DNA of 64,000 nt from an uncultured bacterium (GTDB lineage Bacteria > Patescibacteriota > Gracilibacteria > BD1-5 > UBA6164): contig CAWUJK010000003.1 in assembly GCA_963922865.1 (NCBI GenBank), positions 1,947 through 65,946 on the forward strand. The letters are read 5' to 3'. Each line of letters begins with the position of its first letter. Position 1 is the stretch's first letter. Shown piece by piece: positions 27,268 to 47,915 of the stretch. Under the pieces are notes generated by a model, which had not been told where the DNA came from, searched no databases, and was given only the letters and a program-made list of their open reading frames with translations. The position numbers and the translations under genes were made by a program.

Positions 27268-27272
27268 ATACT

Positions 27273-27959: not shown

Positions 27960-27964
27960 TACCT

Positions 27965-28858: not shown

Positions 28859-29787
28859 TGAAAGAAATAGTTAAAAAATTTAACGATGTTGCTTTTGTTT
28901 GAACTTATGAATGTAATACTGATTGTGAGTATTGTTTTTCTTTTAAGTATATCAAACCTTATAAAGGTATTGCTATGTCTTTTGAGAATTACAAATTTGT
29001 TTTAGATACTATTATAAAAAATTGAGTTAATTCTATTTCTTTTATTGGTTGAGAACCTGCTTTGTGGAATAATATTAACAAAGCCATTTCTTATGCTAAA
29101 AATTTATGAATTAAAACAACAGTTTTTTCAAACTCAATGATTTGTTTGAAAGAATTACCAGATGTTTTTTACATTCATTTAAATGTTTTATTTTTTTTGA
29201 AAAACAAAAATATAATTAAAAACTTATATGAATATTCTAAAAATTCAAAAATAATTTTTATTTATAATGTTTATAATAGCAATAAATATTCTTTAAACTT
29301 ACTTATAAAAATATTAAAGAGTTTCAAGTTTGATTTTGCTATATCTTTTAATATTGCTTTTAATATCAATATGGATAAAAATTATTGAAACTTTATATAT
29401 AATGCTTATAGAATTATAGCAGAAGAAATGGGAAAAAATGTGCTATCTTCTTGACCTTTACCTCATTGTATTTTTACTGCTGAACAAATATGTTATCTAC
29501 AACAAAAATCTATTTTGGATAATTCCTATTGACCCCCTTGATTTGATAATACAGATGTTTTTTTTCCTGTAGTTAACCCAGATACTAAAACACTTTTACC
29601 TTGTGCACCCATAAATCTAGAAATAAATTCATCGTATTTACTTGAATGAAAATATGATGATTACAAATCATATTATTCCAAAAAATTTGAAAAATTTATT
29701 TATAAAAAAAATAATTTTTGCTGAAATTGTGATAAATTTAATAAAGATTGTCAGTACTGAGGACTCATTAATTTATATTCATTTTAG
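28858..29787 (+). CDS. radical SAM protein (309 aa)
   Basis: The motifs are CNTDCEYC, IGGEP and the tail FCGNCDKFNKDC. The start overlaps the upstream stop (TAATG). Confidence 0.8.
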
Positions 29788-29799
29788 ACTTTTATATTT

Positions 29800-30690
29800 A
29801 TGAATAATCTTTTGTTTGAAATAATAATGTCTAATCAATGTAATAGGAGATGTCCTTATTGCAAATTGGATTTTCATAATAAAATAATATCCCAAGAATA
29901 TCTTGATTCTATGGTTTATTTTTTAGAGTCAAATAAATCATCAATTTCAAACTGTATTATAAACTTTTTTGGTTGAGAACCACTTTTAAACTTTGATTGA
30001 ATAAAATATTTTGTAAGTAAAACTAAACATCTACCTTTTATAAAATATTCTATATGAACAAATTGAATCCTTTTAAATGAAAAAATTTTTAATTATTTAA
30101 ATGAAAATAATTTTCAAATTTATCTCTCAATTGATACTGAAATAGCAGATGTGATTTTAAAAAAAGATTTTTTGAAAAATAATTTAAAAAATATAAAGCT
30201 CAACTTTATAGTTAACCCTAATACAGTAGATAAATCTTTTTTGCTTTTTGATAAATGTATAGATTTTGGTTTTAAAAATATAAATATAATGCCAGTCATG
30301 TTCAGTATAAAATGGAATAAAAATTCTTTTTCTTTACTTAAAAAATTTATTGATACTAAAATAAAACCTTTTAAAAATTATGATATTAATTTAGTTTCAT
30401 ATTATAACTGATTTACCACTGATATACAATATGTTTTAGATTCTGATGGATTTGTATACTTAGATCTTGACAGTCTGCTTTGGATACAAAAACAATGATC
30501 TATCTTATCTTCTAAGTTAAAAGATAAGATACATAATTATACAAAAATATGAAAAATGCAAGATATAAGTTTCAAAAAATTAATTTCTTCTTATAATATA
30601 AAAGAAATTTTAAAATTAGTTTTAGAAATACCAAAATACCAATGATTTTTAAAAGATTATAAAGTAATATCTAAAATATTTAATGGATAA
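29800..30690 (+). CDS. radical SAM protein (296 aa)
   Basis: The motifs are CNRRCPYC and FGGEPLLN. It joins track ORF 30151..30411. Confidence 0.8.
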
Positions 30691-30724
30691 CAATAAACTA
30701 AATCTTTGGAAATATATTACTTAT

Positions 30725-32014
30725 ATGAGATTGAATATGATGAATTCATATTATTTTCCATTGGAACCATTTTATGAGAAAAATCTTAATATTTCAAAAG
30801 ATTTATTTATAAAGTCACTCAGATCAAAAAATAAATGATTATATATTCATATACCTTTTTGTATTACTGAATGTTCTTATTGTGCTTGTACTAAAATGCA
30901 ATTAAAAAATGGAATTTCTACATCAATTTATGTTGAATATTTAATAAAAGAACTTGAAATTTTTTATAAGCTAAACTCTAGAAAAAAACTTATTTTTAAT
31001 ACTCTTACTTTTGGTTGATGAACGCCATCAATATTATCAATTTCTGATATTGAAAATCTTTTTTCTTGAATATATAAATATGTAGAAAAAAAATTTATTA
31101 CTCAAATTAGTTTTGAAGCTGCACCCTATACTATAACAAATGAAAAAATAGATATTTTGAAATCTATGTGAGTAAATAGAATGTCATTTTGAATACAATC
31201 CTTAGACAAGCAGATACTAAAAAATAATAACAGACCATATATACCAAAACAAAAAATTAAAGCACTAGTAAAATATATACAAAGTTTATGAATTAGTATT
31301 GAAGCAGATTTGATTGTTTGAATAAAATCACAAACAATCAAATCTGTAATTGAAGATGTAAAATTTTTGTTGTCCATGTGATTAGATGATATAACCTTTA
31401 ATTATTTTTCACCTCATAGATTTTCAAAATATATAGATAATAAAGATACTATAAACTTGAAAGAAAAATTTAAACTTATAGATAAAAAATTAGTTGAAAA
31501 TTGACAGGTTAAATGATCTTATTGTTTTCAAGAAAGATATATTTACTCTGCTAGAAGATACACTATTATTGGTCTAGGATATGGTGCCACTTCAAATCTT
31601 TGAAATAGTTTTGTTTATGTAAAAGATTCTTTACAAGATTACTATGATTTGATTGATAAATGAAAAATACCAGCATCATCATGAATATATATGGATGACA
31701 ATTTTGAATATATAAGATATATTTATTGGCATATCATCAAATGAGAAATAGATTTGATTGAAATGAATAGAATTTTTTGAGTAGATGTATATAATAAATT
31801 TAAAAAAGAAATTGATTTTTTAGTTCTTGAAAAAATAATTGAATATGATGGAAAATCAATAAAAAATATAACATCTATTGACAATTTATTTATCCATTTA
31901 ACCGTTTTTATTGAAAACATAGTAGAAAATAGTATGTTTTCTAAATCACCTAAAAAACTACCAAAAAATATTGATATGATTCTCAAACAAATGATATATG
32001 ATTATGTAATTTAA
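30725..32014 (+). CDS. HemN/HemW-like radical SAM protein, paralog 1 (429 aa)
   Basis: The motifs are LYIHIPFCITECSYC, FGGGTPS and GVNRMSFGIQS. Confidence 0.8.
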
Positions 32015-32015
32015 A

Positions 32016-33335
32016 ATGAATAAAAAAAAGCTAGATTTTCGGAAATTTATGACATATAAAATGTTATCACTAAATTCATCTTTTGTATTTCCATTGGAGT
32101 TTTTTTTCAAACCTAATTTCAAACCAAATATATCTGAGATATCATCATACTTAAATAAAAAAAATAAGTGACTATATATTCATATACCTTTTTGTATTAA
32201 AATTTGTGATTATTGTGGTTGCTATAAACAAAAAGTATCAAAAAAAGATGATTTAGATAAATATGTTGATTATTTAATAAAAGAACTAGAGATTTATTAT
32301 GAGTTGAATAATTCAAAAAAACTAGAATTTACAACTATAATGTTTTGATGATGAACCGCTTCTATCCTAACGGTAAAGCAACTTGATAAATTATTTTATT
32401 GACTTTATAAATTAATAGATAGAACTAATCTCAAACAAATAAGTTTTGAATCTTCTATTTTTACATTGAATAATTCTAAAATAGATATTTTAAAAAAATA
32501 TGATGTTGATAGAATTTCTATTTGAATACAAAGCTTTGATAAAACTGTTTTGGAAAAGAATAATAGAGTATATATGGAATATTATAAGATAAAAAATATA
32601 GTAAACTATATAAAAAAATCATGAATTTTAGTTCAGGTTGATCTAATGATATGAATAAAATGACAAAATGAAAAAAATTGTATTAAGGATTTTAAAAAAA
32701 TGATAGAACTTTGAGTTGATAGCTACACAATGAACTATTATATAGCACATGATTATGCTAATTTTTCTGATACAAAAAAGGGATTGAATTTAAAGGAAAC
32801 AATGAAAAAACTAGACCATAAATATAATTTTATAGCAAAACATAAATGATCATATTTACTCCAAGAAGATTTAGTTTTCAATGATTTTAATTATTTTGTT
32901 GTATGACTTTGAGTTTGAGCAACTAGTAATATTTGAAATAAATATATTTATAGAAAAACCAATTTTTTAAATTATTATAAAAATATTGATAACAAAAAAA
33001 TAATTGCTGATAGCTGAGTTGTTGCTCCAACTAATTTTCCAGAGATAAAGTACATGTTTGAAAAATATAAAGACTGAGATATTGAGTTTGAAAACTTCAA
33101 AAATACTTTTTGAAAAGATATAAAGATTTTATTTAAAAAAGAATTGGAATTTTTAGCTTTAGAGGGTATTATAGATATAGGTGAAACTAATTTAAAATTT
33201 TTGAAAAATAAATATGAATCTAGAATATATCTAAATGTTTTCTTAGAAAATTTTTTTGAAAGTAAAAAAGATATAGAAATTCCAGTTTTGGATAAACAAT
33301 TCCATTTAGATTTAACATGACTTATATATGAGTAA
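32016..33335 (+). CDS. HemN/HemW-like radical SAM protein, paralog 2 (439 aa)
   Basis: The motifs are LYIHIPFCIKICDYC, FGGGTAS and DVDRISIGIQS. It starts 1 nt after the paralog 1 stop. Confidence 0.8.
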
Positions 33336-34002
33336 TATTATAAAATATGATAAAAATATAAAAATATCTTTATCTAACTGAAAAATTGTCAAAAAACATA
33401 AGTATTTTAATAATTATATAAGAGAGAAAAAAGCATACTTATTTTTTTCAAAAAATAATTTAGAAAATTTTAATATACCAAAAATAATTAAGTTTTATGA
33501 TAATAAAAAAATTATTGAGATGGAAAATATAGATTGATCTTACACTTGAGAAATACTAAAGTCTAAAATCAAAAATAATTTAGAATTTGCTATTAAGCTC
33601 TTTAAGAATTTAAATTCTTGACTTAAAAGTTTACATAATTTTGAAATCAGAGATTGATTTGATATAGATGAAATATTTCATTTTGATAGAAATAATCCAT
33701 ACATGAAGAATGTTTTTAAAAGTTTTGGTATACAACATTATCCTATTGAAAAGTGTTTTGTCCATTGAGATTTAACATTTGATAATATTATGTATAAAGA
33801 TGATAAATTATACTTTATTGATTTTACTGCTTTTTGTATCTCTGATAAATATTATGATTTTGTTTTTTATTATTGATTTGCTGAATTGTTAAGTTTGGAT
33901 ATATTATTAAAGTTAATAAAAATATTTTATTGAGATAAATTTAATTATAACAAATTTGAAACTTATGTTATATTGAAATGAATTAAAAGTTTAGATTTTT
34001 AA
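33328..34002 (+). CDS. small kinase of the aminoglycoside/choline-kinase (APH) fold (224 aa)
   Basis: The motifs are HGDLTFDNIMY and LYFIDFT (catalytic loop and DFx-like). It overlaps the upstream gene by 8 nt (ATGAGTAA). Confidence 0.6.
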
Positions 34003-34051
34003 TTTAAAAATATTTTACCTTTTAATTAGTTGTTATTAGAATTGATTTATA

Positions 34052-34939
34052 ATGAAAAATAATAATAAAAATGCTTTTGAATGTAGTGCTGTTACAAAAT
34101 GAATTGAGATAGAATTGACCAGCTATTGTTCTTTTAAATGCATAATATGTCCTAGAGAAAAGCTCCCTAAGTATCATTTTTTAGATTTTGATAATTTCAA
34201 GAAAATAATTGATTTAGTTAAACAATGAAATTATACAGAAATAATGGTATGTGGTTTATGAGATGCATTTTTGCATAAAGATATAAATAAATTTTTGGAT
34301 TATTTGTTTTTAAAACTTCCAAATATAAATTTTTTTATAATGACTAAATGACAAAGTATACAAAATAAACACCTTGAAAAAATATCTGAACTTCAAAAAA
34401 AATGATATAAAGTTTCCTTGACCTTTTCTATATTTTCTTTAAATAAACCTATTTATAACTATCTAACCTGATGAGATTTTTTTGATAAATTTATGCAAAT
34501 ATTTAAAAAAGTTATTTCTATGAATATAAATTATTCTTTGGAGTTTTTGCTTTCAACTTTGACCCTAAAAGAGTTAGATAGTTTCAAAAAATTTGCTTAT
34601 AAATTATGAAAAACAGATTATTGAATTTCACTTGTACATAATTGGTCCTGAGAGATACCACATTCTATCCATAAAAAACTTTTTAATGAAAAAAAATTAA
34701 AATGATTTTATCAAAAAAGAAAAAGTAATGATTTATGTGAGGCCATAAAATATGATTATCTTTACATAGATTCTTATTGAGATGTTTTCCAATGCTCTTT
34801 GAATGAATTACATAGAAAAGGACTTTTATGAAAACTATGAGATTATAGCTTAAAAGAATTCTTAAATAAAAAAAGAATGCTAAATTATAAAAAAACTTGT
34901 GAATGATGTTTTTATTTAGACTTTAAAACATTTTGTTAA
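34052..34939 (+). CDS. radical SAM protein (295 aa)
   Basis: The triad is CSFKCIIC, followed by VCGLGDAF. The C-terminal Cys residues are CEA...QCS...TCEGCFYLDFKTFC. Confidence 0.75.
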
Positions 34940-35700
34940 TGAACATAGCAATAATATGACTTTGAAACCACTGAAAAAAATATATAAATTTTTTTGAAAA
35001 AAAAGATTTAGAAGTTTTTTGAGCTTGTAAGACAAGAAAAACAAAAAATTATATAGAAAGTAATTATCATATTAAAGTATTTTTAGATTATAAAGAATTG
35101 ATAAAAACTCATAGACTTGATTTTATTGTTTTAGCTCTACCTCAAGAAATCCAATGAAAAATAGCTTTAAATATATTAAAAAAAGTATCTAAAAAAACCA
35201 AGATTCTTATTGAATTACCAGTTTGTGATTCAATCTCTGATAGAGAAGCTTTAGAAAAGTTTGAAAATGTATGATTTTTTATTGAAGAATATTATAGTTT
35301 ACTTTCAAGTTTTTTGAGAAAAATTGATATTTCAAATATATCTAGTATAAATGTTAGTATGTATGTGTCAGCTGAAGATTTTTGAGATGAAAAATCTCAA
35401 AATATTGATAAAATTCATTTAATGAATAACTTCGTATGACTTTGAATTGATTATAATATTTTTGATATAAAAATATATAAACATGATGATATAAATGTAT
35501 ATTTTGATATAAATTTTTCTTATTTGTGAAAAAAAATTAATTATAGCTTTTTTGAAAAAAAGATTTTAAAAATTTGAAATAAACAATTTATAGATAATTT
35601 TAATTTTGATGAAGTCATAAACAGTTTACTTGTTGATTTTTCACCTTCTTCTAAATCAAAAAAAGATTTTAATAGACTATTTAAAGAAATTAATTGATAA
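34939..35700 (+). CDS. NAD(P)-binding Rossmann oxidoreductase, Gfo/Idh/MocA-like (253 aa)
   Basis: The N-terminus is MNIAIIGLGNHGKKY. The start overlaps the upstream stop (TAATG). Confidence 0.55.
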
Positions 35701-35704: not shown

Positions 35705-37807
35705 ATGAAATATATTTGAGCAAATTTTATCACTAGCATAAAAGATTGGAGTTGTGTATTAATAGAGAATTGAAATTTAACTTGAGTTTCTTTGGACAAG
35801 TTAGATTCTTTTAAGTTTTCTCCCTATTTATCAGATCTTATTTTATATTCTATTCAATCAAAAAAGCAAGGAAAACAAAGCTCTCTTTTCCCTAATTTAT
35901 ATGAAAAAGATTTAATCAAAATCACTAAAAGTGCTAGAGATACTTTTAAAAACTATTTTAGCTTAACAAATTTTTATGAAAGTATTAATTTTGAAGGAAA
36001 AAATATAATAAATTACAAAAATAAACATGCTTATTATCATGTCTTATGAACCCACTTTTCAAGTCCTTTCAATGATTCTGTGTGAATTTGTATAGACTAT
36101 CTATGATACAATGATTTTTGAAATCATCAAGTTCAAACTATATGGAAATGTGGTAAAAATAATATTGATTTATTAGATGATTTTGATACAAGCTTAACTA
36201 TAAACAGGTGAATATGATTTACTTATTCTATTTTTGCTGATTTTTTTGATATTTATAAATATGATATTGCTTTTTTAGTCCCTTATTGAAATAAAAATTT
36301 ATTTTCTTGAATAGAATTATATGAATATAAAGATGGAAATGTTTTTTTGAAAAAAGATTTCTTGTATTGAGTTTCTCTACAAGCTGACTTATTACCTAAA
36401 ACTTTTTATGCATCAATAGAAGAAATACCATGAAATATGGATGCTATATATTCAAATATAAAAAGAATATTTAACATAAATGACAAACAAATAAATGATG
36501 CACATAAAGATTTGAAAAAATGAATTATAGCAAATTTACTAGCATATGTTCATGATGAAACTAGAAAAGCTTGTTTGTTCTTAACTAATAAGGCCTATGA
36601 ATTATGAAATTCTAAAAATTTAACTATATCAGGTTGGTTAGCATCAAATCATTTGCTTTGTAATGAAATAGTTAATAAATCTAGGTTTAAAAATTTTTAT
36701 TTTGAAGTTTCTCCAAACTATACTGGTATATCAGTTTGAGCTGCCTTTGAGTTATACAAAAAAAGTATATATTTAGAAAAAACATGATATTGAAAGCAGT
36801 ATTCAAATGAGGATATTTTCATAACTTTATCAAATTATTCAAATTATTTAAGTTTTGATTTATTAAGTGATATTGAGCAACAAAATAATCTAATCATAGA
36901 TAAATTGAAAAATAAAAAAATCATTTGATATTTTAAAGCAGGAAGCGAATTATGACCAAGAGCTCTATGAAATAGAAGTATATTATCAATTTGTGATTGT
37001 GAAGATTTATCTGATAAAATTAGATCTATTAAAAAAAAGCAAAACTGGAAAAGCTTTTCAATCTCAATTTTAGAAAATGAGCTTTGAACTTACTTTGAAG
37101 ATAATCATAAATCTATTTTTATGAGTTTATCATCGAAATTAAAAGATAAGTATAAAAAAGATTTTGTCTGAGTTAATTTTGATAACAATATTATCAGATA
37201 CCAAAGTATTTGAGAAAATAATAATAGATTTTTATATGATTTATTATGTAGTTACTCTAAAGTAACATGAAAGCCTTTCTTATTGAATACATCTTTAAAT
37301 TCATTTAAACAATCTATTGTTGAATGCCCTAAACAAGCTATAGAGCTTTTTTTATCCACAGATATAGATTATTTAGTGTTATGAGATTTTATTGTATCAA
37401 AAGATAAAACTTATGAAAAATTTAGCTTTGATTATGAAAAAGTAAAAACTCAAAAAAACATAGATTATTTCTCAACTAACAAAGATAGTTATAAGAACTA
37501 TGTTTCTATAAAAACTATTTTAGAAAAATTATTTTTTAAGTGATGCGAATTTAATATTAGTAACATAAAATATTTTGAAACAACTATTGATTTAGATTTT
37601 TTTTGAAATAAAATAAGTATTGAAAAGTTAAATAGTTGAAAGAAATATGATATGAAAACTAATAATGTTTGAATAAAAATTTTTAAACTTGAAAGTAGAA
37701 AAGAATTAATTATTTTTTACAAAAAATTAAAGCTATTGGATTATAAATTTGAATCTATATTTTCTAAATGAGAGTATTTTTTAAAAGATTTAACTAATTA
37801 TTTATAA
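35705..37807 (+). CDS. NodU/CmcH-family carbamoyltransferase paralog, divergent at several motifs (700 aa)
   Basis: It keeps GSELGPRALGNRSIL. It has NTSLNSFKQSIVECP and SGWLASNHLLCN where paralog 2 has NTSFNVSREPIVETP and GGVALN. Confidence 0.7.
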
Positions 37808-37814
37808 ATATATT

Positions 37815-39839
37815 ATGAAATATATTTGAGCTAACATTTATTCAACTACACATCTTTGGAGCGCTTGTTATTTAGATGAAAAAGGTATTTTGAAAGCCAT
37901 TGAACTTGAAAGATTAGATAGATATAAAAATTCTCCTAATCTTTCTAGTTTTTGATTGATTCCTAAACTAGATAATTATTTTAGAAAAAAAATAATTGAT
38001 TATTTTAGTATTAAATGAGAATATAAATCTATTAATTTTGATAAAAAAAATATAATTGAAAAGCATCACTATTTACATGCTTGTTCAGTATATTATTCAA
38101 ATAATATAGAAAAAGCTGCTGTCTTATGTATGGATAGAAATGGTTATGACTTGAATTTTTGAAATCAATTTCAAACTATATGGAAAGCAAAAGATATGCA
38201 TCTAGAACTTAAATATTCTACTCAAATTGATTCTCAACTTGATAGATGAATATGATTTGCTTACTATATTATTTCTGAGTTTTTAAAACTTTGAGAATGA
38301 TCAGTAATGTGATTATCTTCTTATTGAGATAAAAATATTTATAAAAATATAAAAATTTATGAATATAGGGATAATGGAGTTTATTTTAATAAAAAATTTT
38401 TACAAAGAACTATATATGATTTTTCAAATAATTCTACTTTTTTTAAGAGATATGATTCTTTTGATGAAATGTACTGAAATAGAGATATTATTTTTGAAAA
38501 TATAAAAAATATTTTTGGACTTAGTAATCAAGATTTAGAATTTGCTAAAAATAATATTGTAAATTCCAAATTTTCACATATTGCTGCACTACTTCAATAT
38601 CAAACAGAGGAAGCTATTTTATATTTAGCTAAAAAAGCATATAAATTATACCCATCAAAAAATCTTTGTTTAGCTTGATGAGTGGCATTAAATATTTTAG
38701 CAAATACTAGAATATTAAAAGAAACTAAGTTTGAAAATATTTTTATATCACCAGTATCTGAAGATATATGATTATCACTATGAGCTTTTTATCATTTATA
38801 TCACATTCAAGAAAAAAATATTACTAGAGTATTTTTAGAAAAAACTTGATATTGAAATAGTTATTCTAAAAGTATGATTTTAAAAACTTTGGATGAATTT
38901 TGAGATTATTTAACATATGAAAAACTAACACAGCATGATATTTATGAAAAAACTGCAAATAAACTTATGGAAAATAAAGTTTTATGATGGTTTCAGTGAT
39001 GAAGTGAATTTTGACCAAGAGCTTTGGGTAATAGATCAATTATAGCATCACCTTCTTGTCTAAAAATTAAAAATAAGATTAACAAAATAAAATCAAGAGA
39101 ACTTTGGAGACCTCTGGCTCCATCTATTTTAGAAGATAGTATAAAAGATTATTTTGATATAGATTTTTTATCCCCGTTTATGAGTTTTTCCTGAAATATC
39201 AAAAAATCAAAGCTGTGATTTATAGATTGAGTAACCCATATAGATAATACTTCTAGATATCAAAGTGTAGGGGAGGTAAATAATAAAAAATATTATGATT
39301 TAATTAAAAAATTTAAAGAGAAATCTTGAATACCTATTATTATAAATACTTCTTTTAATGTCTCTCGCGAACCTATAGTTGAAACTCCTATAGACGCTCT
39401 GAAAATGTTTTTATCCACAGATATAGATTATTTAATATTGGATAATTTTTTTATAAAAAAGAGCAAAAAAACTGATAAATTTAGATTTAACTATGAAAAT
39501 ATAAGATTAAAAAGGAATCTAGTATTTTCTAAGAATAAACAAGCTATAATAAATAGAAAATACCTAAACAATAAATTTGAAAAATTATTCAAAAATTATG
39601 ATTTTAAAATTTATAACAATTTTTATGATGAAAGCATATCTTTTTTTATAGATGGTTTTAAATATATTCTTGAATTTTTTTCCTCAAGTAGTAATTATTT
39701 ACATATTGAGAAAAAAACTTGATTAATTAAGTTATGAAGATATTCTATAAATGATGATAAAATTATAAATATCATTTATAAAAAAAGTGATATTATAGAT
39801 TTTATGTTTTCAAATGATTATGTAATAAAAGATTATTAA
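37815..39839 (+). CDS. NodU/CmcH-family carbamoyltransferase (674 aa)
   Basis: The motifs are HHYLHACSVYY, LAGGVALN, GGSEFGPRALGNRSII, RPLAPSIL, HIDNTSRYQSV and NTSFNVSREPIVETP. Confidence 0.85.
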
Positions 39840-41221
39840 TGATATCCCAAATATTTTATTCTCAAGTATTATTTCCTTCAATTACTTATGATAATTGGAT
39901 TGATTTTTGAAATATGAAATTAAAAAAAATTGAAGAATTATGTTTTTGAAAAATAAAAACCACTTTTATATGTAAAGAGAATTCAAATTACTTTCATGTG
40001 TATTTTCTTTATAAGGATCTAACTTTAAAAGAAAATATAAATACAAAAGAATGGTATGTTTATTGAGATGAATCACCTTTAGTAAAAGATGTTATTTCTA
40101 GAATAAATAATGGAGTAAAGAATCAAACAGAATTCAGTTTTTTTAAAGATAAAAAATTTTACGACAAGATACCTTTTTGAGTTGTTTTAACAATAACCAG
40201 TAAGTGTAATATATTTTGTAATTATTGTTTTAATGATTATGATTACCCCTTGAAAGATAGAAACCTAAGAAAAGGTCTATCTTGAAAAGATTATAAAAAA
40301 ATTATAGACATATTGTATGAATCTTGAACAAGGGATATAATTTTAACTTGATGAGAGCCCTTCATAGCACCTTATTTTTGGGAGTTGTTAGATTATTTAA
40401 AAGAAAAAAATATTTTTACTAGAGTTAATACAAACTGAACATTGTTATCTGATGAAACTTTAAAAAGACTAAACGATAATTATGTAGTTAATTTAATGGT
40501 ATCTATACATGAATTCAATCAAAAAGATTATTTTAAAGTAAATGAAGTCTGAGCTATAAACATACAATGACTAAAATCACTTAAAAATTTTGAAGATAAG
40601 TTTTATAAAAAAATTGTAGAATTAAGAAAAATAAAAAATTATAAAAACCTTAGTTTGGATATTATGACAATACTTGATACTAAAAATATATTAAATTTAG
40701 AGAAAATATATGAGTTTATACTTAGTAACTTTGAGGTTGAAGATTGGCATTTTTTTAGATTGTATTCTACTTGAACTACTTCCTGAATATCAAGACCAAT
40801 GATTTCTTTAGCTATTGCTAAATTATACAAATTGAATAAAATCTATAAAAGGAATTTCAAAATTGTTGATAGTGTTCCTTATTGTGCTAGTAGCAATCCT
40901 GAGATAGCAAGTAAAGTAATAGATTGAGAATTATCTGAAAATCACAATGTAAAAACTATTATAACAACAGACTGATTTATACAAATAATGTCAGCTTTTG
41001 ATACTAATTTGGGTAATATACTTGAAGAGGGAATAGAAAATATATGGAGATGAAATTTTGTTCAAAAAATGCTAAATCATTGATTTTTACCAAAACAATG
41101 TCAAGATTGTCTTTACAAAGACAGTTGTAGATGAGGTTCCAGGATGGATGCTAATATATATAATTGAAGTTATGATGCTTGGGACCCATTATGAGATGTA
41201 GATAATAAAGTTATTTGATAA
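39839..41221 (+). CDS. radical SAM / SPASM-type protein with N-terminal extension (460 aa)
   Basis: The motifs are CNIFCNYC, TGGEP and the C-terminal CQDCLYKDSCRGG. The start overlaps the upstream stop (TAATG). Confidence 0.8.
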
Positions 41222-41306
41222 TTGTTTAATTCAGATCTTATTGTTTTGAACTTTATTTTATAGAAAGATAACTATTTTTAGTTATAATACATGAAAAAAT
41301 ATAATT

Positions 41307-42599
41307 ATGGAAAAAGATAAATTTGTAAATATGATAAAAAAAACTAAAAATCCTTTTTTTATAAAAGATATTTTAATTATGTATTTAAAAAAATCTATAT
41401 TTTTAAAAAGAATTTATAAAAATATAGATTTTTTGTGAGTAAAACCGGAAAGTGAAAAAAAACTTGATGAAACTATAAATGATATTTCAAAAATTTCAGA
41501 TATTTTTTTAGATGAAAAATCTAGAGACATTTACTATAAAAAAAGATCTCCATGATGTACTTTTTGTACTTTTTGAAAATGATGTACGGTTGTTTTAAGC
41601 TATAAATGTCATAGAGATTGTTTTTTTTGTTATGAAGAAACCCCTCTAGATCCTAAAGTAGTTATTGATCCTTATGATAAAGAAGATATGAGTAAAATTT
41701 ATTCTATAATAGACTCTTCTTTTTCTAATCCAACCAATAAAACTTTGGCTATAACTTGATGAGAACCATTTTTATTTAAGGATAAGGTTTATGAAATTTT
41801 AGAATATGTAAACTCTAAATACCCTTGAAAACATACTAGAATATATACAACAGGAGATATAATGAATGATGAAATACTTACTAAACTTAAGAGTCTAGAA
41901 CTTGATGAGATAAGATATAGTATAAAACCTTGAGAAGAACCTAATTTAAAAATATATGCTTTAACTAAAAAATATATACCTACAGTTATGATTGAAATGC
42001 CTATTCAACCATTTTCAAAAGATTATATGATAGATATAATGAAAAAAATAGATGAGCACTGAAGTATAGATTGATTTAATTTGAATGAGCTTACCTTCAA
42101 TAACTTGAATCCAGAAAAATACAAAGAAGTATGATACAAATTAGATATACCCAAGTGAGATTCAAACTATATTTATCATAGATATTATGATGTTTCAAAA
42201 ATAGAAATTTGAGTCTATGGTAGTAAGATACTTTGTCTAGAACTTATAAAATATTTTTCAAAAAGAAAATCTAGTTTTTTTATGCATTATTGTGATTTAG
42301 ATACTGTTTCAACTCATCAATATATTTATAAAAAAAATAATGCCATTTCTATGAAACATCCATACTCTGAGATAACCAGATTTGCACTTCATAAGGTCTT
42401 AAGAGCATATTCTTGTCTTGAAAAAATAAAAGATTTATTCAAAGAAAATAACATAAATGAATTTTATACAAACTCCAATTATATAGAAACTAGTGTATCT
42501 CATAAAGAGTTACTTAAATCTACTGGATGTATTTTAGCTATAATTTATATGCATTTTGATTATAGTTACGCAGTTGATTTTGAAATTATAAATATTTAA
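41307..42599 (+). CDS. radical SAM protein (430 aa)
   Basis: The motifs are CHRDCFFC, preceded by CTFCTFGKGC, and ITGGEPF. It joins track ORF 42282..42599. Confidence 0.75.
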
Positions 42600-42600
42600 C

Positions 42601-42939
42601 ATGAGTGATTTTAACTACGAAAAAAGTTTTATAATAAATTGATTCAAGGCTTTGGATAAATCTTGAGTTAAATGGCCTGCTAAAAAAGTTGCTTTTCTAT
42701 TTGGTTATGAAAATCAAACAAAAGATTTTGTGAAATTGATAAATAAATCAAAAAATATTTGCAAAGTTAAATGAGTGGAGGTAGAAAATCATTTTTTTTG
42801 AGACATAAATGACTTGAACTCTTATTTTCTTACAAAATACTCTTGCTATTTAATTTCTGTTTTTGCTGATTTATCAAAAAAAAATGTTACTTACTCCAAG
42901 ACCTACTTTGATCTTGAAGTTAAAAATATGTATATTTAA
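42601..42939 (+). CDS. hypothetical protein (112 aa)
   Basis: ATG 42601 lies 1 nt after the upstream stop. I recognise no motif. Confidence 0.5.
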
Positions 42940-42941
42940 TT

Positions 42942-43793
42942 ATGATTAAAAACAATAATATTTTATCAGATTTGAGGATAGTAAATACTTGTTCTAATAA
43001 TTGTTTATATTGTCTTGAGCAATCTTATAGAAAAAAACAAAAATTTATTGATAAACAGTATATATTTGATTTGTTGAGTAAATCAAATACATGAACTAAT
43101 ATAAATTTTTATTGATGAAATCCACTTTTACATCCATATTTAATTGAAATAATAAAATTTTCAAGGACTAAATTTGAAAATATTTGATTATTAACTAATA
43201 CTTTTTGATTAAATAAAAATTTTTTAGATGAACTTATAAACTCTTGACTTAACTCTATTTGAGTTTATTTCAATAGCTTTTCAAAACATAAACATAAGCT
43301 GATAAATTGAAATTGAATTAGTTTAAAAGAGTTATTAGATAATATAAAACTCTTAAAAAATAATCCTATTTTTTATAAAATTATAATACATATAAATAAT
43401 CAAAATATTGATGAACTTTATAGAGACATTTTGATCTTAAATACTAAATTTTGAGTAAAAAATATAGAATTTATAAACTATTTTCCATTTGACAGACCTT
43501 ATCAAAATAAAAAAATATTAGAGTATAGTTTTTCTAAAAATAGACAAAATATAGATAATATATTCAAGATTATAGAAAAATTTAATATAAAAGTGAAGTT
43601 TATTAAATTTGATAAAAAATTTTTCTGAAAATATTTTAAATACTATGATTTTGATAACTGAATTGTAAGTCAAATTTGAGAAGAAGATTTCAAAAGACTT
43701 TCTTGAAAAAAAACTCCTTTTTGTTATACTGAACAAAGGTGTGATAATTGTTTTATAAAAGATAATTGTAGATTTTATGTACTTTGAAGCTAA
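42942..43793 (+). CDS. radical SAM protein (283 aa)
   Basis: The motifs are CSNNCLYC, YGGNP and the tail RCDNCFIKDNC. Confidence 0.8.
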
Positions 43794-44640
43794 TATATGA
43801 TATTTTTGTAAGAAAGATTGTATTTTTTGCTCAGAATGATGATATTGAAAACGAAATGTATTAGAGTTGAAGGATTTTAAAAAAATTATTATAAAAAAAA
43901 AATTTACAAAAGTAGTTTTAACTTGATGAGAACCTATTTTAAACCCAAATTTGATAGAGTACATAAATTTTTGTAAAGAAAATAATATTTATGTTTCACT
44001 CGTTACTGCATTTGAACCCTATTTGAGTGAAAATTTTATAGATTCTATTATTAATAGTTGATTAGATGAATTAATGCTTTCTATACAATGACCAGAAAAA
44101 ATACATGATTTCTTAATTAAACAAAAATGATCTTTTAAAAGTCAAATTTTTTTGTTAAACTATTTAAAGTATAGACCAAATAAATTCAGAGTCATTTTAC
44201 ATACTAATATAAACAAATTCAATTATAAAGTTTTGCCTTTTTTTATAAACAAAATGTTTTTTTTATTTCCTTATATCTCGGTTTATCATATTCAGGCTTT
44301 AGAATATGATTGAAGCGCAATTAAAAATAAAACAATTCTTTTTGATAAATATACAACACTTTTCTCTGTTTTTTTTAGTAAAGTTTCCAATATTAAAAAT
44401 TTAGATAGAATTAAGTTTTGAAGAATACCATATTGTGTTGTGGATCAAAAATATAGGTTTTTGATTTGAAATACACCTAAAACATTTAATAAGAGAGATT
44501 GATACTATAAACAAGATATGGTATATAAAGAATGAATATATGATGAAAAGTGTCATGGATGTAAATATTATTATTCATGTGATAAATTTACAAATGTTTA
44601 TGTTGAAAAATTTTGAGATGAAGAAATACAATTAATATAA
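43777..44640 (+). CDS. radical SAM protein (287 aa)
   Basis: CKKDCIFC begins 10 codons after the ATG. The other motifs are TGGEP and the tail KCHGCKYYYSC. It overlaps the upstream gene by 17 nt. Confidence 0.75.
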
Positions 44641-44646
44641 TTATTT

Positions 44647-45630
44647 ATGAATTATAAAAGACTTGAAATTTATTTATGATGGACATGTAATAATAAATGT
44701 CTATTTTGTATTGAAATGGCTACTATGGATAAAATGTGGAATAAAAAAGTAAGTGAAGCAGAAATACTTAAAAAACTTTTGAAATATAAGAAGCTATGAT
44801 ATAATCATGTCACATATTTATGATGAGAACCTTTTATCCAAGACAACTTTCTTTTTGCCTTAAAAACTTGAAAAAAACTTTGATACACTATAATGGTTAC
44901 AACAAATGGAAATTTAATTCAATATCACAAAGCTGCCAAAAAATATCTTTCATATATAGATGAACTTATAATATCCATTCCAATAATAGATCAAAAATTA
45001 CAATTAAAAATTAACAATACAAAATCTATTATTGATTTTAATAAGGTTTTTCAGAATATAGATAAGTATTGGAATTGAATTTTTTTGAAAGTAAATACTG
45101 TTATGAATCCTTTAAATATAGATCATATATATGATATAGTAAAATTTATACATAATTATGGTGTTAAAGAATTATCTTTAACATACCCTGATATAGATAC
45201 TTATAAATACAGTGATGAGCATATAAAAAAATATTTGATATTAAGGTATGAAGAAGTAATTAGAAAAATAGAAAAATCTTTTGTTTTTTCATTAAAATCA
45301 TGAATAAATATAAAACTAACTGATGTACCTTTCTGCTTTTTACCTAGTAAAAATTGGATAAAGCATACAGACGATTATGATTATGACTGAAGAACTAAAA
45401 TTATGTATCATTGATGAGAATTTAAAAGAAAATGAGCACTAGATAGGTTGAGTAATTTAGAGTCAGTTCTTGATAAAAATGAAGATGATAATGCGAAAGA
45501 AGTTATAAACCCTAGAATGAGAAAGTATTTAAAAGAGTGTTACAAATGTAAATATTTATGAAAATGTTGGTGAGTAGCGGATAGTTATGATCATTTTTAC
45601 AAGGATACTAAAATTAAACCCATTTTATAA
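44647..45630 (+). CDS. radical SAM protein (327 aa)
   Basis: The motifs are CNNKCLFC, LGGEP and the tail ECYKCKYLGKC. It merges track ORFs 44893 and 45085. Confidence 0.8.
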
Positions 45631-45633
45631 TCT

Positions 45634-46629
45634 ATGTCTGAAATTGAAAATAAATTTGAACATTTTATAAATGAAATTATAAGAATCAATTATAAATGTA
45701 ATTGGAAATGTAATTTTTGTAATGTATGACTTGTAAATAACTATTGAGATAAAGATATAAATCACAAAGAAGTAATTTATAAGATTTTGACTTTGGGTAA
45801 GAAATATTCTTTAAAAGAGAAGTCGAATTTAGTATTATCTTTTTCATGATGAGAACCCACTTTGAATAAAAATTTATTTAATTACATAAAATTAGCAAAA
45901 AATATATGAATTTGAAGAATACAAATTCAGACTAACTGAAGTTTACTTTATTTAAATCACTCCCTTTATGATAAATTATTTTCTGCGTGATTGAATGAGA
46001 TTTTTTTAGCACAACATTCAGAAAATTTAGAAACAAATATGGAAATGTGATGTTATTATGATTTCAATGATTTCTTAAGTTGGTTTAATTATGTAAGAAA
46101 TAGTAGAAAAAATATAAAGATTTATTTAAATATAGTTATTACGAAAATTAATATAGAGTTTTTATATAAGTTTATAATTAAACTTATAGATATATGATTT
46201 ATAAAACATATATGAAATAAAATATCTTTTTGATTTTGTCAACCAAACTGATATGCTTGGGATAATAAGGAAGATACCTTACTTGTTTTTGATGATTATC
46301 AGATTAATTTGATTAATAAAGTAATAAATTATTGTAAAAGTAGGGATATTTATTTGGATTTTCATTATACTTCACCTCCAATTTGTATATTACAAAACCC
46401 TGAATATAATCTTGAATATAAAAAGCTTAAGATTTTAAAAAATAATAAAAATATAAGCACTTTTAATCTAAATAGTTTCAAGTTTTTATGGAAAGAAAAA
46501 AGTAAGTTAAGTATTTGTAAGACTTGTAGGTATGATAATTATTGTCTTTGATTCTACAAAAATTGGATAAAATACATATGAAAAGACATATTAATACAGA
46601 GGGTTAAAGACTTTTTATCAAAATATTAG
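45634..46629 (+). CDS. radical SAM protein (331 aa)
   Basis: The motifs are CNWKCNFC, SGGEP and the tail ICKTCRYDNYC. Confidence 0.8.
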
Positions 46630-46673
46630 CTTGTACTATTTAGAATCCTTTTTTAAACATAACTTTATTTAAC

Positions 46674-47915
46674 ATGAAAATTGACTTATATGATGATTTT
46701 CTAAGCATATTTGTTTTAATATATTCAGATTTCCATTTAGTAGATCTTTATACTTATGAAAATTATAATAAATTATTTAAAATTGAAATAAAAAATATAA
46801 ATAATAATTTTTTTGATTTTTTACATGTCTCAGTAGTAAAAAATAAGTTTATAGTTATTAGAAAAAAGAAAAATCAATATTTAGATTTTTTCATTGATAT
46901 TTTAAATGAAAATAGTTCTTGAATAGAAAATTCAAAAACATATAAGAATATGTCTCATTATAAAATAAAGACAGACTTTAGAAATCATTTGCGTCTATTA
47001 TTTTCTTTGATAATAGAAACTTGATTAAGAGATAATACTAATTTTGATAAGCAATTATCATATTTTAAGCAAAATAACTTAACATCTTATCTTGTTCTTA
47101 GCACATTATTAAAATGATTTAGGTGAGATATGAATTTGCTACAGTGAGTTAAATATAATAACTTGTTGATAAAAAAATATCCCAATATTTCTTCTTTTTA
47201 TACTTGGCGAGTTAGAAATGTTTTTTTCCATTACATTCAAAAAGTTTTATGACATGAACTTTATTATAAGCTTTTAGAAAATAATAAACAAAAACTTTTA
47301 AGTTCTTACTATATGAAACTTATTTTTTACGATTTAGAAAAATCAAAAAAACTTAATAAAAATAATTATATTACTTACATGTTTGAGTGACATATATATT
47401 TATATTTATGAGATGATAAATGAATATGAATATTAAAGTGACTTAAATGAAAGATATCAGATTCATTGTATAGTAAGGATGTGTTAGTTTGGATATGAAA
47501 TTATTATCTTTGGAAAAAAGATTATGAACTTGCTGAAAAATACTTATTAAATAGCGATATAAAAGATAATTTTAGATTTTATAGAAAAATAATACCAGTA
47601 TATATATTATCATGACAAAAAAACAAGCTAATATCAATTTTTAATGAATTAATTAATAAATGATATAAGATATTTTTATTTAATAGGAAACATGATGTTG
47701 AATGAAGTTATTTGTTGGGTGAAAATTATATAAAAAATGAAGATATGAACATACCTATAGATATTTGACATGAAACATTTAAAAGTATTGTTGAATTAAT
47801 ATGAAAGAAATCTATTAATGTAGATTCATCTATGTTATTTTATAAATATTTTAGAAAAAATTATAATAAGTACTTTTTAGATGACTGTAATTATAGTCTA
47901 ATTTTTCAAAAATAG
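46674..47915 (+). CDS. hypothetical protein, possibly helical-repeat (413 aa)
   Basis: The whole frame was scanned and has no TAA or TAG. I recognise no motif. Confidence 0.6.

What the first reader, a model, noticed from the sequence alone, without database searches (positions are those of the whole stretch)
35705..39839. Tandem NodU/CmcH carbamoyltransferase paralogs (one canonical, one degenerate) inside a peptide-maturation island
Paralog 2 retains the family motifs GGVALN, GGSEFGPRALGNRSI, HIDNTSRYQSV and NTSFNVSREPIVETP. Paralog 1 keeps GSELGPRALGNRSIL but has diverged at the others. That pattern is typical of a catalytic plus non-catalytic pair. Both have about 150-aa C-terminal extensions that share only the block (E/K)(L/M)FLSTDIDYL(V/I)L. 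Carbamoylation of His, Ser or N-termini, or related adenylation-type chemistry, within an rSAM-rich peptide cluster is unusual.
Basis: partly seen in the sequence, partly recalled or inferred. Interest (0 to 1): 0.7.

Follow-up and report, generated by a model that had tools for sequence, protein, structure and literature searches.

The report
Active/degenerate carbamoyltransferase pair in Hxs island
Two neighbouring carbamoyltransferase genes, one with an intact active site and one that is conserved but has lost key catalytic residues, sit inside a very large radical-SAM island that matures His-Gly-Ser-repeat proteins in a bacterium that reads TGA as glycine; this combination has not been described before.

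Summary
The two ORFs exist at exactly the stated coordinates, but only when TGA is read as glycine (genetic code 25). Both are NodU/CmcH/TobZ-type carbamoyltransferases.

Paralog 2 (37815-39839) keeps every defined catalytic residue. Paralog 1 (35705-37807) has lost the catalytic His (now Lys13), the fourth iron ligand (Asp to Tyr339) and the GG nucleotide motif (now GW). The same substitutions occur in all four orthologues examined, which are as conserved as paralog 2's, so paralog 1 is a maintained degenerate copy, not a pseudogene.

The pair arose by one duplication (97/100 bootstraps) and recurs in tandem in the four lineages with flanking DNA; a fifth lineage is known only from two short contigs.

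One claim is wrong. The FLSTDIDYL block is the end of the canonical domain. The true extensions (134 and 125 aa) are homologous along their whole length and form an orphan domain with no structural match.

The island is a real His-Xaa-Ser (Hxs) system: HxsD and HxsB score above curated cutoffs, and there are two HGS-repeat precursors and 17 radical-SAM genes. In relatives the enzyme is fused to two different rSAM types.

The most likely function is carbamoylation of the precursor by a heterodimer of the two paralogs. Verdict: a new variant of a known kind.

The parts
35705..37807 (+). Paralog 1 (CT-P1, 700 aa, code 25): a degenerate NodU/CmcH-type carbamoyltransferase paralog. Kae1-like domain at nt 35705-36784; YrdC-like domain at nt 36899-37402.
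   Evidence: Pfam Carbam_trans_N 34 bits and Carbam_trans_C 137 bits. The PDB hits align only over roughly residues 288-568. It retains 44 of 80 family-invariant columns. Substitutions: K13 for the catalytic His, A109, SGWLASN (W311 is a true TGG codon), Y339 for the fourth Fe ligand, R440, K449. It keeps H108, H112, D131, K443 and S530/N532.
37403..37804 (+). C-terminal extension of paralog 1 (residues 567-700, 134 aa): an orphan domain.
   Evidence: Homologous to the paralog 2 extension. No Pfam, NCBIfam or PDB-sequence hit.
37815..39839 (+). Paralog 2 (CT-P2, 674 aa, code 25): the predicted catalytically competent carbamoyltransferase. Kae1-like domain at nt 37815-38846; YrdC-like domain at nt 38955-39461.
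   Evidence: Pfam 89 and 206 bits. PDB sequence hits: VtdB 7XB6 E = 2.7e-56, GdmN, NovN, TobZ. It retains 70 of 80 invariant columns, including H13, H84, H88, D107, D317, AGGVALN, K426-x-R428 and S513-x-N515. The AF2 model of orthologue P0005 has pLDDT 92 and its best Foldseek match is TobZ, E = 4e-36.
39462..39836 (+). C-terminal extension of paralog 2 (residues 550-674, 125 aa): an orphan alpha2-beta4-alpha2 domain.
   Evidence: The domain-only AF2 model of the orthologue has pLDDT 83.5. Foldseek finds no significant match in the PDB (best E = 0.75) or BFVD. A profile search of 1.84 billion representative proteins finds it only in these CT clusters.
23157..23735 (+). HxsD (192 aa), the first gene of the island.
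   Evidence: NCBIfam TIGR03976, 56.9 bits against a cutoff of 50.
23757..23954 (+). HxsD-like small protein (65 aa).
   Evidence: The L010 orthologue (50% identical) hits NF038315 at 43.2 bits against a cutoff of 41. Coordinates verified.
23957..25426 (+). HxsB radical-SAM maturase (489 aa).
   Evidence: NCBIfam TIGR03978, 486.8 bits against a cutoff of 370.
25445..26316 (+). Two HxsA3-like precursor genes (25445-25795, 116 aa; 25837-26316, 159 aa). They share a leader, an HASG..NGHYS motif and the C-terminal sequence HGSHGSHGSHGSRW.
   Evidence: The best NCBIfam hit is HxsA3, E = 5e-10 and 4e-6, below the curated cutoff. Conserved in L009, L010, L011, L012 and L013. The family has 288 clusters.
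26329..35700 (+). Upstream accessory block: an HxsC-like rSAM (26329-27267), a lipoprotein-like gene, rSAMs at 27965, 28858 and 29800, tandem HemN-like rSAMs (30683-33335), an APH-like kinase (33328-34002), an rSAM/SPASM gene (34052-34939), and a GFO/IDH/MocA-like oxidoreductase (34939-35700) directly upstream of the pair.
   Evidence: Pfam and NCBIfam hits. Gene gaps of 49 bp or less, or overlaps. Synteny conserved in relatives.
39839..47915 (+). Downstream accessory block: rSAM/SPASM (39839-41221, overlapping the paralog 2 stop codon), rSAM (41307-42599), a 112 aa protein, rSAMs at 42942, 43777, 44647 and 45634, and a 413 aa protein of unknown function.
   Evidence: Pfam hits. The rSAM at 42942-43793 is the 68%-identical orthologue of the rSAM domain fused to a third CT in L001/L009 and L007.
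48503..54300 (+). Distal part of the island: rSAMs at 48503-49411, 50687-51976 and 53356-54300 (the last is the best HxsC match in the window, 101.7 bits). It is interrupted by a PDC-S01-type ATPase (49465-50628) and a minus-strand PPDK_N-like gene (52182-53291).

Best explanation
The two genes form a co-transcribed tailoring module of a greatly expanded His-Xaa-Ser (Hxs) radical-SAM maturation island. The host is a code-25 bacterium of the Gracilibacteria/Absconditabacteria type.

Paralog 2 is a working class-III (TobZ/GdmN-type) carbamoyltransferase. Its YrdC-like domain makes carbamoyl-AMP from carbamoyl phosphate and ATP. Its Kae1-like domain uses an Fe site (H84, H88, D107, D317) and the base His13 to transfer the carbamoyl group to a nucleophile. 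That nucleophile is most likely a side chain of the HGS-repeat HxsA3-like precursors, or an intermediate made on them by the neighbouring rSAM enzymes.

Paralog 1 arose by tandem duplication of a paralog-2-like gene. It has lost the transfer machinery (His to Lys13, Asp to Tyr339, GG to GW). It is kept under purifying selection as a non-catalytic partner, most likely in a heterodimer with paralog 2. Precedents are TsaD-TsaB in the same superfamily and the obligate GdmN dimer.

The shared 125-134 aa C-terminal domain occupies the position where related enzymes carry a fused rSAM domain. It probably mediates assembly with the partner or with the rSAM maturases.

Shown here: family membership, the residue pattern, conservation, duplication history, Hxs context and the fusions. 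Inferred: carbamoyl-phosphate chemistry, the acceptor, the heterodimer, and the role of the extension.
For: Family and active site. Both Pfam domains are present. The closest solved structures are VtdB, GdmN, NovN and TobZ by sequence and by fold (model pLDDT 92). Paralog 2 residues H84/H88/D107/D317 align directly to the GdmN Fe ligands H133/H137/D156/D333, and H13 aligns to H27. The roles of those residues come from PMC9633730. The KxR...SxN and HxxH...D motifs come from PMC9654439.

Degeneracy. Paralog 2 orthologues keep 65-70 of 80 invariant columns; paralog 1 orthologues keep 40-46. Fifteen invariant columns are lost in all four paralog 1 orthologues but kept in all four paralog 2 orthologues; 11 of those are in the Kae1-like domain.

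Maintenance. Paralog 1 orthologues are 45-69% identical to each other, against 51-68% for paralog 2. The ORF is intact in five lineages.

Origin. Paralogs 1 and 2 form one clade in 97 of 100 bootstraps, with a long paralog 1 stem.

Coupling. Gaps between the two genes are 1-7 bp, with no terminator.

Context. HxsD and HxsB score above curated cutoffs, and precursors with (HGS)n-RW tails are present. Synteny is conserved.

Functional link to rSAMs. The CT domain is fused to two different rSAM families whose standalone orthologues are in this island (68% and 42% identity).

Precedents. NodU-like enzymes carbamoylate RiPP substrates: StdF uses carbamoyl phosphate and ATP and gives +43 Da (PMC13174530); CgnI acts in crocagin biosynthesis (PMC10070186). 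GdmN needs dimerisation for activity. TsaD-TsaB/YgjD-YeaZ heterodimers appear among the fold matches.
Against: No complex was modelled, and no biochemical data exist.

The extension is not the GdmN/NovN dimerisation fold, not an RRE and not HxsD-like. Its assembly role therefore rests only on its position.

A single-copy CT with the same extension exists (P0010 in L008), so the extension does not require a degenerate partner.

Paralog 1 keeps three of the four metal ligands and most of the KxR...SxN tetrad. Also, 16 of its 27 substituted invariant positions are fixed to one new residue. That fits a retained or new pocket function as well as it fits a dead scaffold.

No carbamoyl-phosphate source is encoded in the window.

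The neighbours include a GFO/IDH/MocA oxidoreductase and an APH-like kinase, and distant islands carry sugar-modifying genes. The acceptor could therefore be a sugar rather than an amino-acid side chain.

The structure model used an orthologue carrying 12 Trp-for-Gly translation errors.
Confidence: 0.55

Rival explanations
1. Paralog 1 is not a dead partner but a neofunctionalised enzyme. Its remodelled pocket (His108, His112 and Asp131 retained; Lys13, Tyr339, Trp311, Cys319 and Arg440 newly fixed) would catalyse a different step. It might process the carbamate installed by paralog 2, or use another acyl-adenylate made in its partly intact YrdC-like domain.
For: Sixteen of 27 family-invariant positions that all paralog 1 orthologues have replaced are fixed to a single new residue, against 36-39% background invariance (binomial P = 0.01-0.03). 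Three of four metal ligands, K443, S530/N532 and GSELGPRALGNRSI are kept. Paralog 1 is as conserved overall as paralog 2.
Against: The statistic rests on four related sequences. The nucleotide-binding GG motif is disrupted by Trp. The KxR arginine is Lys in two of four orthologues, and the L003 orthologue also loses the SxN Asn and the GPRA loop. No known family member works without the His base; GdmN H27N is inactive.
Confidence: 0.2
2. The pair carbamoylates a sugar or another small-molecule hydroxyl rather than an amino-acid side chain of the precursor. Candidates are a glycan attached to the Hxs product or a surface glycoconjugate.
For: The solved-structure and NCBIfam relatives retrieved here act on secondary metabolites or glycoconjugates: TobZ, NovN, GdmN, VtdB and NodU. 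A GFO/IDH/MocA oxidoreductase lies directly upstream and an APH-like kinase is nearby. Distant HxsA3-type islands carry DegT, UDP-glucose dehydrogenase and glycosyltransferase genes, and in L013 a single CT lies in the same island as DegT and Asn-synthase-like genes.
Against: No glycosyltransferase or sugar-nucleotide gene was found in this island between 23 and 54 kb. The CT domain is fused directly to peptide-maturase-type rSAMs. StdF and CgnI show that the family can act on peptide substrates.
Confidence: 0.2
3. Paralog 1 is a decaying pseudogene left over from a recent duplication and has no function.
For: It has weak Pfam N-domain scores and has lost catalytic residues.
Against: The ORF is intact at 700-709 aa in five lineages that have diverged to 45% identity. 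Conservation equals that of paralog 2. The substitutions are identical across lineages, and the extension is conserved.
Confidence: 0.02

Closest known systems
Class-III ATP-dependent O-carbamoyltransferases: TobZ (3VEN), VtdB (7XB6), GdmN (7VX0), NovN (9S2T)
   Same: The same two-domain Kae1-like plus YrdC-like architecture. Paralog 2 has the same Fe ligands, His base and KxR...SxN tetrad. The predicted fold matches at Foldseek E = 1e-31 to 1e-36. Like GdmN and NovN, the proteins carry an extra C-terminal domain of about 100-130 aa.
   Different: Those enzymes are single genes that act on secondary metabolites. Here there is a conserved active-plus-degenerate tandem pair in an rSAM peptide-maturation island. 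The C-terminal domain has no structural similarity to the GdmN/NovN dimerisation domain. Sequence identity is only 20-26%.
RiPP-associated NodU-like carbamoyltransferases: StdF (Lys to homocitrulline) and CgnI (crocagin)
   Same: A NodU-type enzyme embedded in a ribosomal-peptide gene cluster. StdF was shown to carbamoylate a precursor peptide using carbamoyl phosphate and ATP (PMC13174530, PMC10070186).
   Different: StdF is fused to an S8/S53 peptidase and works with YcaO/TfuA and MNIO enzymes. CgnI is a single enzyme. Neither has a degenerate paralog, neither is linked or fused to rSAM enzymes, and neither is in an Hxs system or a CPR organism.
HXS antiphage system (HxsD-HxsB-HxsC-HxsA) of Pseudomonadota
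   Same: HxsD and HxsB are true family members, scoring above curated cutoffs. The precursors carry tandem His-Xaa-Ser repeats. HxsC-like rSAMs are present.
   Different: The canonical system has four genes, 99.7% of examples are in Pseudomonadota, HxsA has a peptidoglycan-binding domain, and there is no carbamoyltransferase (PMC13128918). Here the order is D, D-like, B, A, A, C, followed by more than 20 accessory genes, including 17 rSAMs in all and the CT pair, in a code-25 bacterium. The precursors are HxsA3-like and score below cutoff.
TsaD-TsaB (YgjD-YeaZ) heterodimer of the t6A pathway
   Same: The same Kae1/ASKHA superfamily. An active metalloenzyme is paired with a catalytically inactive paralog that serves as its obligate partner. 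These complexes appear among the fold matches.
   Different: TsaB is a short, single-domain protein that lacks the metal site entirely. The substrate is tRNA. Pairing of paralogs 1 and 2 is inferred, not shown.

Membership tests
NodU/CmcH/TobZ class-III carbamoyltransferase | Both Pfam domains (Carbam_trans_N PF02543 and Carbam_trans_C PF16861) score above their gathering thresholds. | tested here: met
   Paralog 1: 34 bits (cutoff 24) and 136.7 bits (cutoff 27). Paralog 2: 89 and 205.7 bits.
NodU/CmcH/TobZ class-III carbamoyltransferase | Kae1-like Fe site HxxxH...D...D (GdmN H133, H137, D156, D333). | tested here: met
   Paralog 2 has H84, H88, D107 and D317, aligned directly to GdmN, and this holds in all four orthologues. 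For paralog 1 the feature is NOT met: H108, H112 and D131 are kept, but the fourth ligand is Tyr339 in all four orthologues.
NodU/CmcH/TobZ class-III carbamoyltransferase | Catalytic general-base His (GdmN H27, TobZ H14). | tested here: met
   Paralog 2 has H13. For paralog 1 the feature is NOT met: Lys13 in all four orthologues. GdmN H27N is inactive.
NodU/CmcH/TobZ class-III carbamoyltransferase | KxR...SxN tetrad of the YrdC-like domain. | tested here: met
   Paralog 2: K426-S-R428 and S513-F-N515. For paralog 1 the result is inconclusive: KKK in the window, KKR and KNR in two orthologues, KEK in one; SLN is kept in three of four. The motif definition comes from PMC9654439.
NodU/CmcH/TobZ class-III carbamoyltransferase | Carbamoyl phosphate- and ATP-dependent carbamoyl transfer. 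| not testable with these tools
   This needs an enzyme assay. No carbamoyl-phosphate source was found in the 64 kb window.
NodU proper (NCBIfam NF041651 equivalog) | Score above the curated cutoff of 1000 bits. | tested here: not met
   57 bits for paralog 1 and 127 bits for paralog 2. They are family members, not NodU orthologues.
GdmN/NovN subclade (homodimeric CTases) | The C-terminal auxiliary domain has the GdmN dimerisation fold. | tested here: not met
   The domain-only model (pLDDT 83.5) gives no GdmN or NovN hit in the PDB; the best E is 0.75. There is no sequence match either.
RRE-fused carbamoyltransferases | A PqqD-like RiPP recognition element fused to the enzyme. | tested here: not met
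   No RRE or PqqD-like structural or Pfam match for the extension. Such fusions are mentioned in PMC12710340.
His-Xaa-Ser (Hxs) system | HxsB radical-SAM maturase. | tested here: met
   TIGR03978, 486.8 bits against a cutoff of 370, at 23957-25426.
His-Xaa-Ser (Hxs) system | HxsD. | tested here: met
   TIGR03976, 56.9 bits against a cutoff of 50, at 23157-23735. An HxsD-like 65 aa ORF follows it.
His-Xaa-Ser (Hxs) system | HxsA: a protein with tandem His-Xaa-Ser repeats. | tested here: inconclusive
   Four consecutive HGS repeats sit at the C-terminus of both precursors, but the HxsA3 model scores 27-39 bits against a cutoff of 65.
His-Xaa-Ser (Hxs) system | HxsC radical-SAM maturase. | tested here: inconclusive
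   HxsC or HxsC4 is the best hit for several island rSAMs (101.7 bits for 53356-54300; 85 bits for 26329-27267). All are below the cutoffs of 268 and 500.
His-Xaa-Ser (Hxs) system | Compact four-gene D-B-C-A architecture and antiphage function. | tested here: not met
   The architecture is D, D-like, B, A, A, C plus more than 20 accessory genes. Function cannot be tested here. The CTs have no PADLOC hit.

The most novel reading that the evidence does not exclude
Paralogs 1 and 2 form an obligate heterodimeric two-site machine that is physically coupled to radical-SAM maturases. The recurrent CT-rSAM fusions suggest this coupling. In this reading paralog 1's remodelled metal pocket (His-His-Asp plus the newly fixed Lys13, Tyr339 and Trp311) performs a new second reaction on the carbamoylated His-Gly-Ser repeats, such as cyclisation or cross-linking of the carbamate to a neighbouring His or Ser. 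The result would be a previously unknown protein modification on the effector of a CPR-specific, greatly expanded version of the HXS antiphage system.
Probability: 0.12. Interest if true: 0.85.

Novelty: new variant of a known kind. Interest (0 to 1): 0.6.

Why it matters
The HXS system was shown to be an antiphage defence only in 2026. It was described then as a four-gene system found almost exclusively in Pseudomonadota, with an unresolved +8 Da rSAM modification.

This locus shows that code-25 CPR bacteria carry a much larger relative: 17 rSAM genes plus kinase, oxidoreductase and carbamoyltransferase modules, built around the same HxsD/HxsB core and HGS-repeat precursors.

If the prediction holds, the carbamoyltransferase pair would be the third RiPP-type use of a NodU-like enzyme. 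It would be the first with a conserved pseudoenzyme partner, and the first with a direct (Rosetta-stone) link to rSAM enzymes.

It gives a concrete, testable starting point (+43 Da, carbamoyl phosphate and ATP) for working out what these islands make.

There is also a practical point. Public protein databases hold these genes translated with table 4, so Trp replaces every TGA-encoded Gly, including the invariant GG motif. That lowers domain scores and would corrupt structure predictions.

Tried and rejected
1. Table 11 and table 4 translation. Rejected in favour of code 25.

2. Extension as the GdmN/NovN dimerisation domain. The full-length Foldseek search was ambiguous: some GdmN and NovN alignments reached about 750 columns but at rmsd of about 11 Å. 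The domain-only model gave no match.

3. Extension as an RRE. No match.

4. Extension as an HxsD-like domain. This was prompted by the resemblance between NDYVIKD / GEYFLKD and the HxsD 'LLNDYxLRE' signature. hhalign probability was 0.2%, and there was no NCBIfam hit.

5. Extension compared with viral structures. Nothing found.

6. Extension profile against PDB sequences. Only chance-level hits.

7. Naming the organism. The genome-contig scan returned only an unrelated Pelagibacteraceae hit. Cluster look-ups gave no names. No tRNA-Gly(UCA) is in the window; only a tRNA-Cys was found. Taxonomy therefore rests on code 25 plus one precursor homologue named Candidatus Gracilibacteria.

8. Structure prediction with correct code-25 sequences.

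9. Promoter scan. At chance level and uninformative in 21% GC DNA.

10. PADLOC. No hit for either CT.

11. Search for a carbamoyl-phosphate source in the window. None found.

Full report
**Observation and genetic code.** Under the standard bacterial code the region holds no long ORFs. The window is about 21% GC. Treating TGA as a sense codon raises the longest ORF from 200 to 761 aa and yields a dense gene map. TGA makes up 4-5% of codons, far too many for Trp. It falls at invariant Gly positions in AspRS ([24 protein letters not shown]) and Der (GRPNVGKSS), and it encodes the GG of AGGVALN in paralog 2 (TGA-TGA at 38676-38681). The organism therefore uses code 25, the code of Gracilibacteria and Absconditabacteria (established knowledge). 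All the quoted motifs are present.

**Family and active site.** Both proteins pass the Pfam thresholds for Carbam_trans_N and Carbam_trans_C, and paralog 1 scores much lower. The nearest solved structures are VtdB (7XB6), GdmN, NovN and TobZ. An AlphaFold model of a paralog 2 orthologue (pLDDT 92, pTM 0.90) matches TobZ at Foldseek E = 4e-36. More distant matches are TsaD/Kae1 and HypF.

The GdmN paper defines the Fe ligands as H133, H137, D156 and D333, and the general base as H27; the H27N mutant is inactive (PMC9633730). A review defines the superfamily motifs HxxH...D and KxR...SxN (PMC9654439). The phmmer alignments put paralog 2 residues H84, H88, D107 and D317 directly on the four ligands and put H13 on H27. 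Paralog 2 also has K426-x-R428 and S513-x-N515.

I aligned four paralog 1 orthologues, four paralog 2 orthologues, three fusion proteins, one single-copy relative and 50 canonical family members. The 50 canonical sequences are skewed toward one clade (median pairwise identity 72%), which inflates the number of invariant columns.

| Group | All 80 invariant columns | Kae1-like (41) | YrdC-like (39) |
|---|---|---|---|
| Paralog 2 orthologues | 65-70 | 32-33 | 33-37 |
| Paralog 1 orthologues | 40-46 | 19-21 | 21-25 |

In all four paralog 1 orthologues:
- the base is Lys13;
- the second His of the HH pair is Ala109;
- AGGVALN has become SGW(L/I)AS(N/D), with a true TGG Trp at residue 311;
- the fourth ligand is Tyr339;
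- N, R and P of the YrdC domain have become R440, K449 and I/V/C453.

Paralog 1 keeps three metal ligands, the GSELGPRALGNRSI loop and most of the KxR...SxN tetrad. The 'one canonical, one degenerate' description is therefore correct. Loss of function is firmly supported for the transfer site and less so for the adenylation domain.

**The extension.** The FLSTDIDYL block aligns to the last strand of VtdB, which ends there, so it belongs to the canonical fold. Canonical members have tails of about 18 aa beyond it. Paralog 1 has 134 aa and paralog 2 has 125 aa. These extensions align with each other end to end.

A domain-only model (pLDDT 83.5) folds as alpha2-beta4-alpha2. It has no significant match in the PDB, which includes GdmN and NovN, and none in BFVD. 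It has no Pfam, NCBIfam or PDB-sequence match and is not HxsD-like. A profile search of 1.84 billion representative proteins recovers only the paralog 1 and paralog 2 cluster representatives and one fragment. It is a lineage-restricted orphan domain.

**Conservation and origin.** Database entries P0001 and P0121 are this same locus translated with table 4. Among 5.8 billion proteins, only five lineages carry full-length paralog 2 types, and the same five carry paralog 1 types. Beyond the fifth paralog 1 orthologue the score drops from 651 to 153 bits.

Wherever flanks are available the genes are tandem with gaps of 1-7 bp. The fifth lineage (P0004 and P0122) is known only from two short contigs, so its gene arrangement could not be checked. 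Paralog 1 orthologues are as similar to one another (45-69%) as paralog 2 orthologues are (51-68%). A neighbour-joining tree joins paralogs 1 and 2 in 97 of 100 bootstraps, with paralog 1 on a long stem. This indicates one duplication before the lineages split, followed by accelerated change and then stasis.

Of the 27 invariant positions replaced in every paralog 1 orthologue, 16 are fixed to one new residue, against a background of 36-39% (P = 0.01-0.03). This is weak evidence that the old pocket is still constrained.

**Context.** Its genes, in order:
- HxsD (23157-23735; 56.9 bits, cutoff 50);
- an HxsD-like 65 aa ORF;
- HxsB (23957-25426; 486.8 bits, cutoff 370);
- two precursors with a shared leader and C-terminal HGSHGSHGSHGSRW, whose best hit is HxsA3, below cutoff;
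- an HxsC-like rSAM;
- a long + strand run of genes with tiny gaps.

In all there are 17 rSAM genes. Sixteen score above the Pfam cutoff, and one is weak but has a CxxxCxxC motif.

A GFO/IDH/MocA-like oxidoreductase lies directly upstream of the pair, and an rSAM/SPASM gene overlaps the stop codon of paralog 2. This order is conserved in L009, L007, L010 and L003, and those loci have the same precursor family.

The precursor family has 288 clusters, one of them named Candidatus Gracilibacteria. In three distant members the core is conserved: HxsD, a ~64 aa ORF, HxsB, then the precursor. The accessory genes differ. Two loci have no CT within 10 kb, and one has a single CT. The carbamoyltransferase is therefore a variable accessory module of this island family, and the pair is one subclade's version of it.

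**Link to rSAM enzymes.** In L001/L009 and L007 a third CT is fused at its C-terminus to an rSAM domain. That domain is the 68%-identical orthologue of this window's standalone rSAM at 42942-43793. In L005 a single CT is fused to a different rSAM type, 42% identical to the one at 29800-30690. The rSAM domain replaces the orphan extension at the same junction. Two independent fusions argue that the CT and the rSAM maturases act on the same substrate.

**Mechanism.** Paralog 2 most likely makes carbamoyl-AMP and transfers the carbamoyl group to the HGS-repeat precursor or to an rSAM-generated intermediate of it. Paralog 1 most likely serves as a non-catalytic partner. Three precedents support this: the obligate GdmN dimer, in which a loop from the partner lines the pocket; TsaD-TsaB in the same superfamily; and StdF and CgnI, which show that NodU-like enzymes act in RiPP pathways. 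The acceptor, the heterodimer and the role of the extension are inferences. Overall confidence is 0.55.

**Rivals.**
- Paralog 1 is neofunctionalised rather than inactive (confidence 0.2).
- The acceptor is a sugar rather than a side chain (0.2). This is suggested by the oxidoreductase and kinase neighbours and by sugar genes in distant islands, but no glycosyltransferase is present here.
- Paralog 1 is a pseudogene (0.02). This is essentially refuted.

**Comparison and novelty.** The enzymes belong to the NodU/CmcH/TobZ family but are not NodU orthologues and not members of the GdmN subclade. The island contains true HxsB and HxsD but departs from the described four-gene, Pseudomonadota-restricted HXS system, which has no carbamoyltransferase (PMC13128918). 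Literature searches found no description of rSAM islands in Absconditabacteria, of rSAM-type RiPP islands of this kind in CPR bacteria, or of CT-rSAM associations. I rate it a new variant of a known kind, with interest 0.6.

Noticed in passing
whole window; e.g. 38676-38681 and 36635-36637: The window uses genetic code 25 (TGA = Gly, 4-5% of codons). The invariant GG of AGGVALN in paralog 2 is encoded TGA-TGA. The Trp that replaces the second Gly in paralog 1 is TGG, one transition away from TGA.
   Followed up: yes
database proteins P0001/P0121 (this locus) and P0002-P0005, P0122-P0125: Public protein collections hold these genes translated with table 4, so every TGA-encoded Gly reads as Trp (28 and 31 errors in the two paralogs). 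In the precomputed annotations, two of the five paralog 1 entries carry no Carbam_trans_N hit, possibly for this reason. The structure tool also refuses correctly translated sequences.
   Followed up: yes
window 23957-54300: Seventeen radical-SAM genes lie within about 31 kb. Most are about 300 aa, HxsC-like and only 23-34% identical to one another. This is an unusually large expansion for one island in a reduced-genome organism.
   Followed up: partly
window 30683-32014 and 32016-33335: Tandem HemN-like radical-SAM paralogs, 42% identical, form a second duplicated pair in the same island. The L010/L003 lineage has only one of them.
   Followed up: partly
L009 17137-19800; L007 8105-10780; L005 6571-9249: Carbamoyltransferase-rSAM fusion proteins (887-892 aa) occur in related islands. 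The L009 and L007 fusions have Asp instead of the catalytic His. L005 keeps the His and is fused to a different rSAM type.
   Followed up: partly
window 17795-17987 and 19460-19652: A 193-nt direct repeat (97% identical) brackets a two-gene cassette: an unannotated 188 aa gene plus an AbiEii-family toxin at 18756-19463. It looks like an inserted toxin-antitoxin or abortive-infection module.
   Followed up: partly
window 49465-50628: An AAA_14/DUF4143 ATPase matches the PADLOC candidate defence family PDC-S01 at 504 bits and sits among the distal rSAM genes of the island.
   Followed up: no
window 42601-42939: A conserved 112 aa protein lies just downstream of the pair (and before the CT-rSAM fusion in relatives). 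It has weak Bro-N and PADLOC PDC-S13 similarity. Its function is unknown.
   Followed up: no
L010 3248-3634: An HxsA3-like precursor gene (128 aa, ending HGSHGSHGSHGSHGSRW) was not called by the source annotation of that contig.
   Followed up: yes
window 35705-35721 and 37815-37831: The two paralogs begin with the same 17 nucleotides (ATGAAATATATTTGAGC, encoding MKYIGA), although they are only 35% identical at the protein level overall.
   Followed up: no
window 20674-22944 (- strand): A 756 aa predicted secreted protein with 52 in-frame TGA (Gly) codons lies immediately upstream of the island. It was not run against Pfam or any other family library.
   Followed up: no
window 60548-61393 and 61494-62327 (- strand): Two adjacent paralogous genes have similar N-termini (MGEIANKSCYKDLNHLAENLDLEK... 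and a close variant). The one tested has no Pfam match.
   Followed up: no
L011, L012, L013: Distant HxsA3-type islands keep the core (HxsD, a ~64 aa ORF, HxsB, precursor) but swap accessory modules: DegT/Asn-synthase-like/glycosyltransferases, a 2OG-Fe(II) oxygenase, or a single CT. Two of them lie next to the ATP synthase operon.
   Followed up: partly
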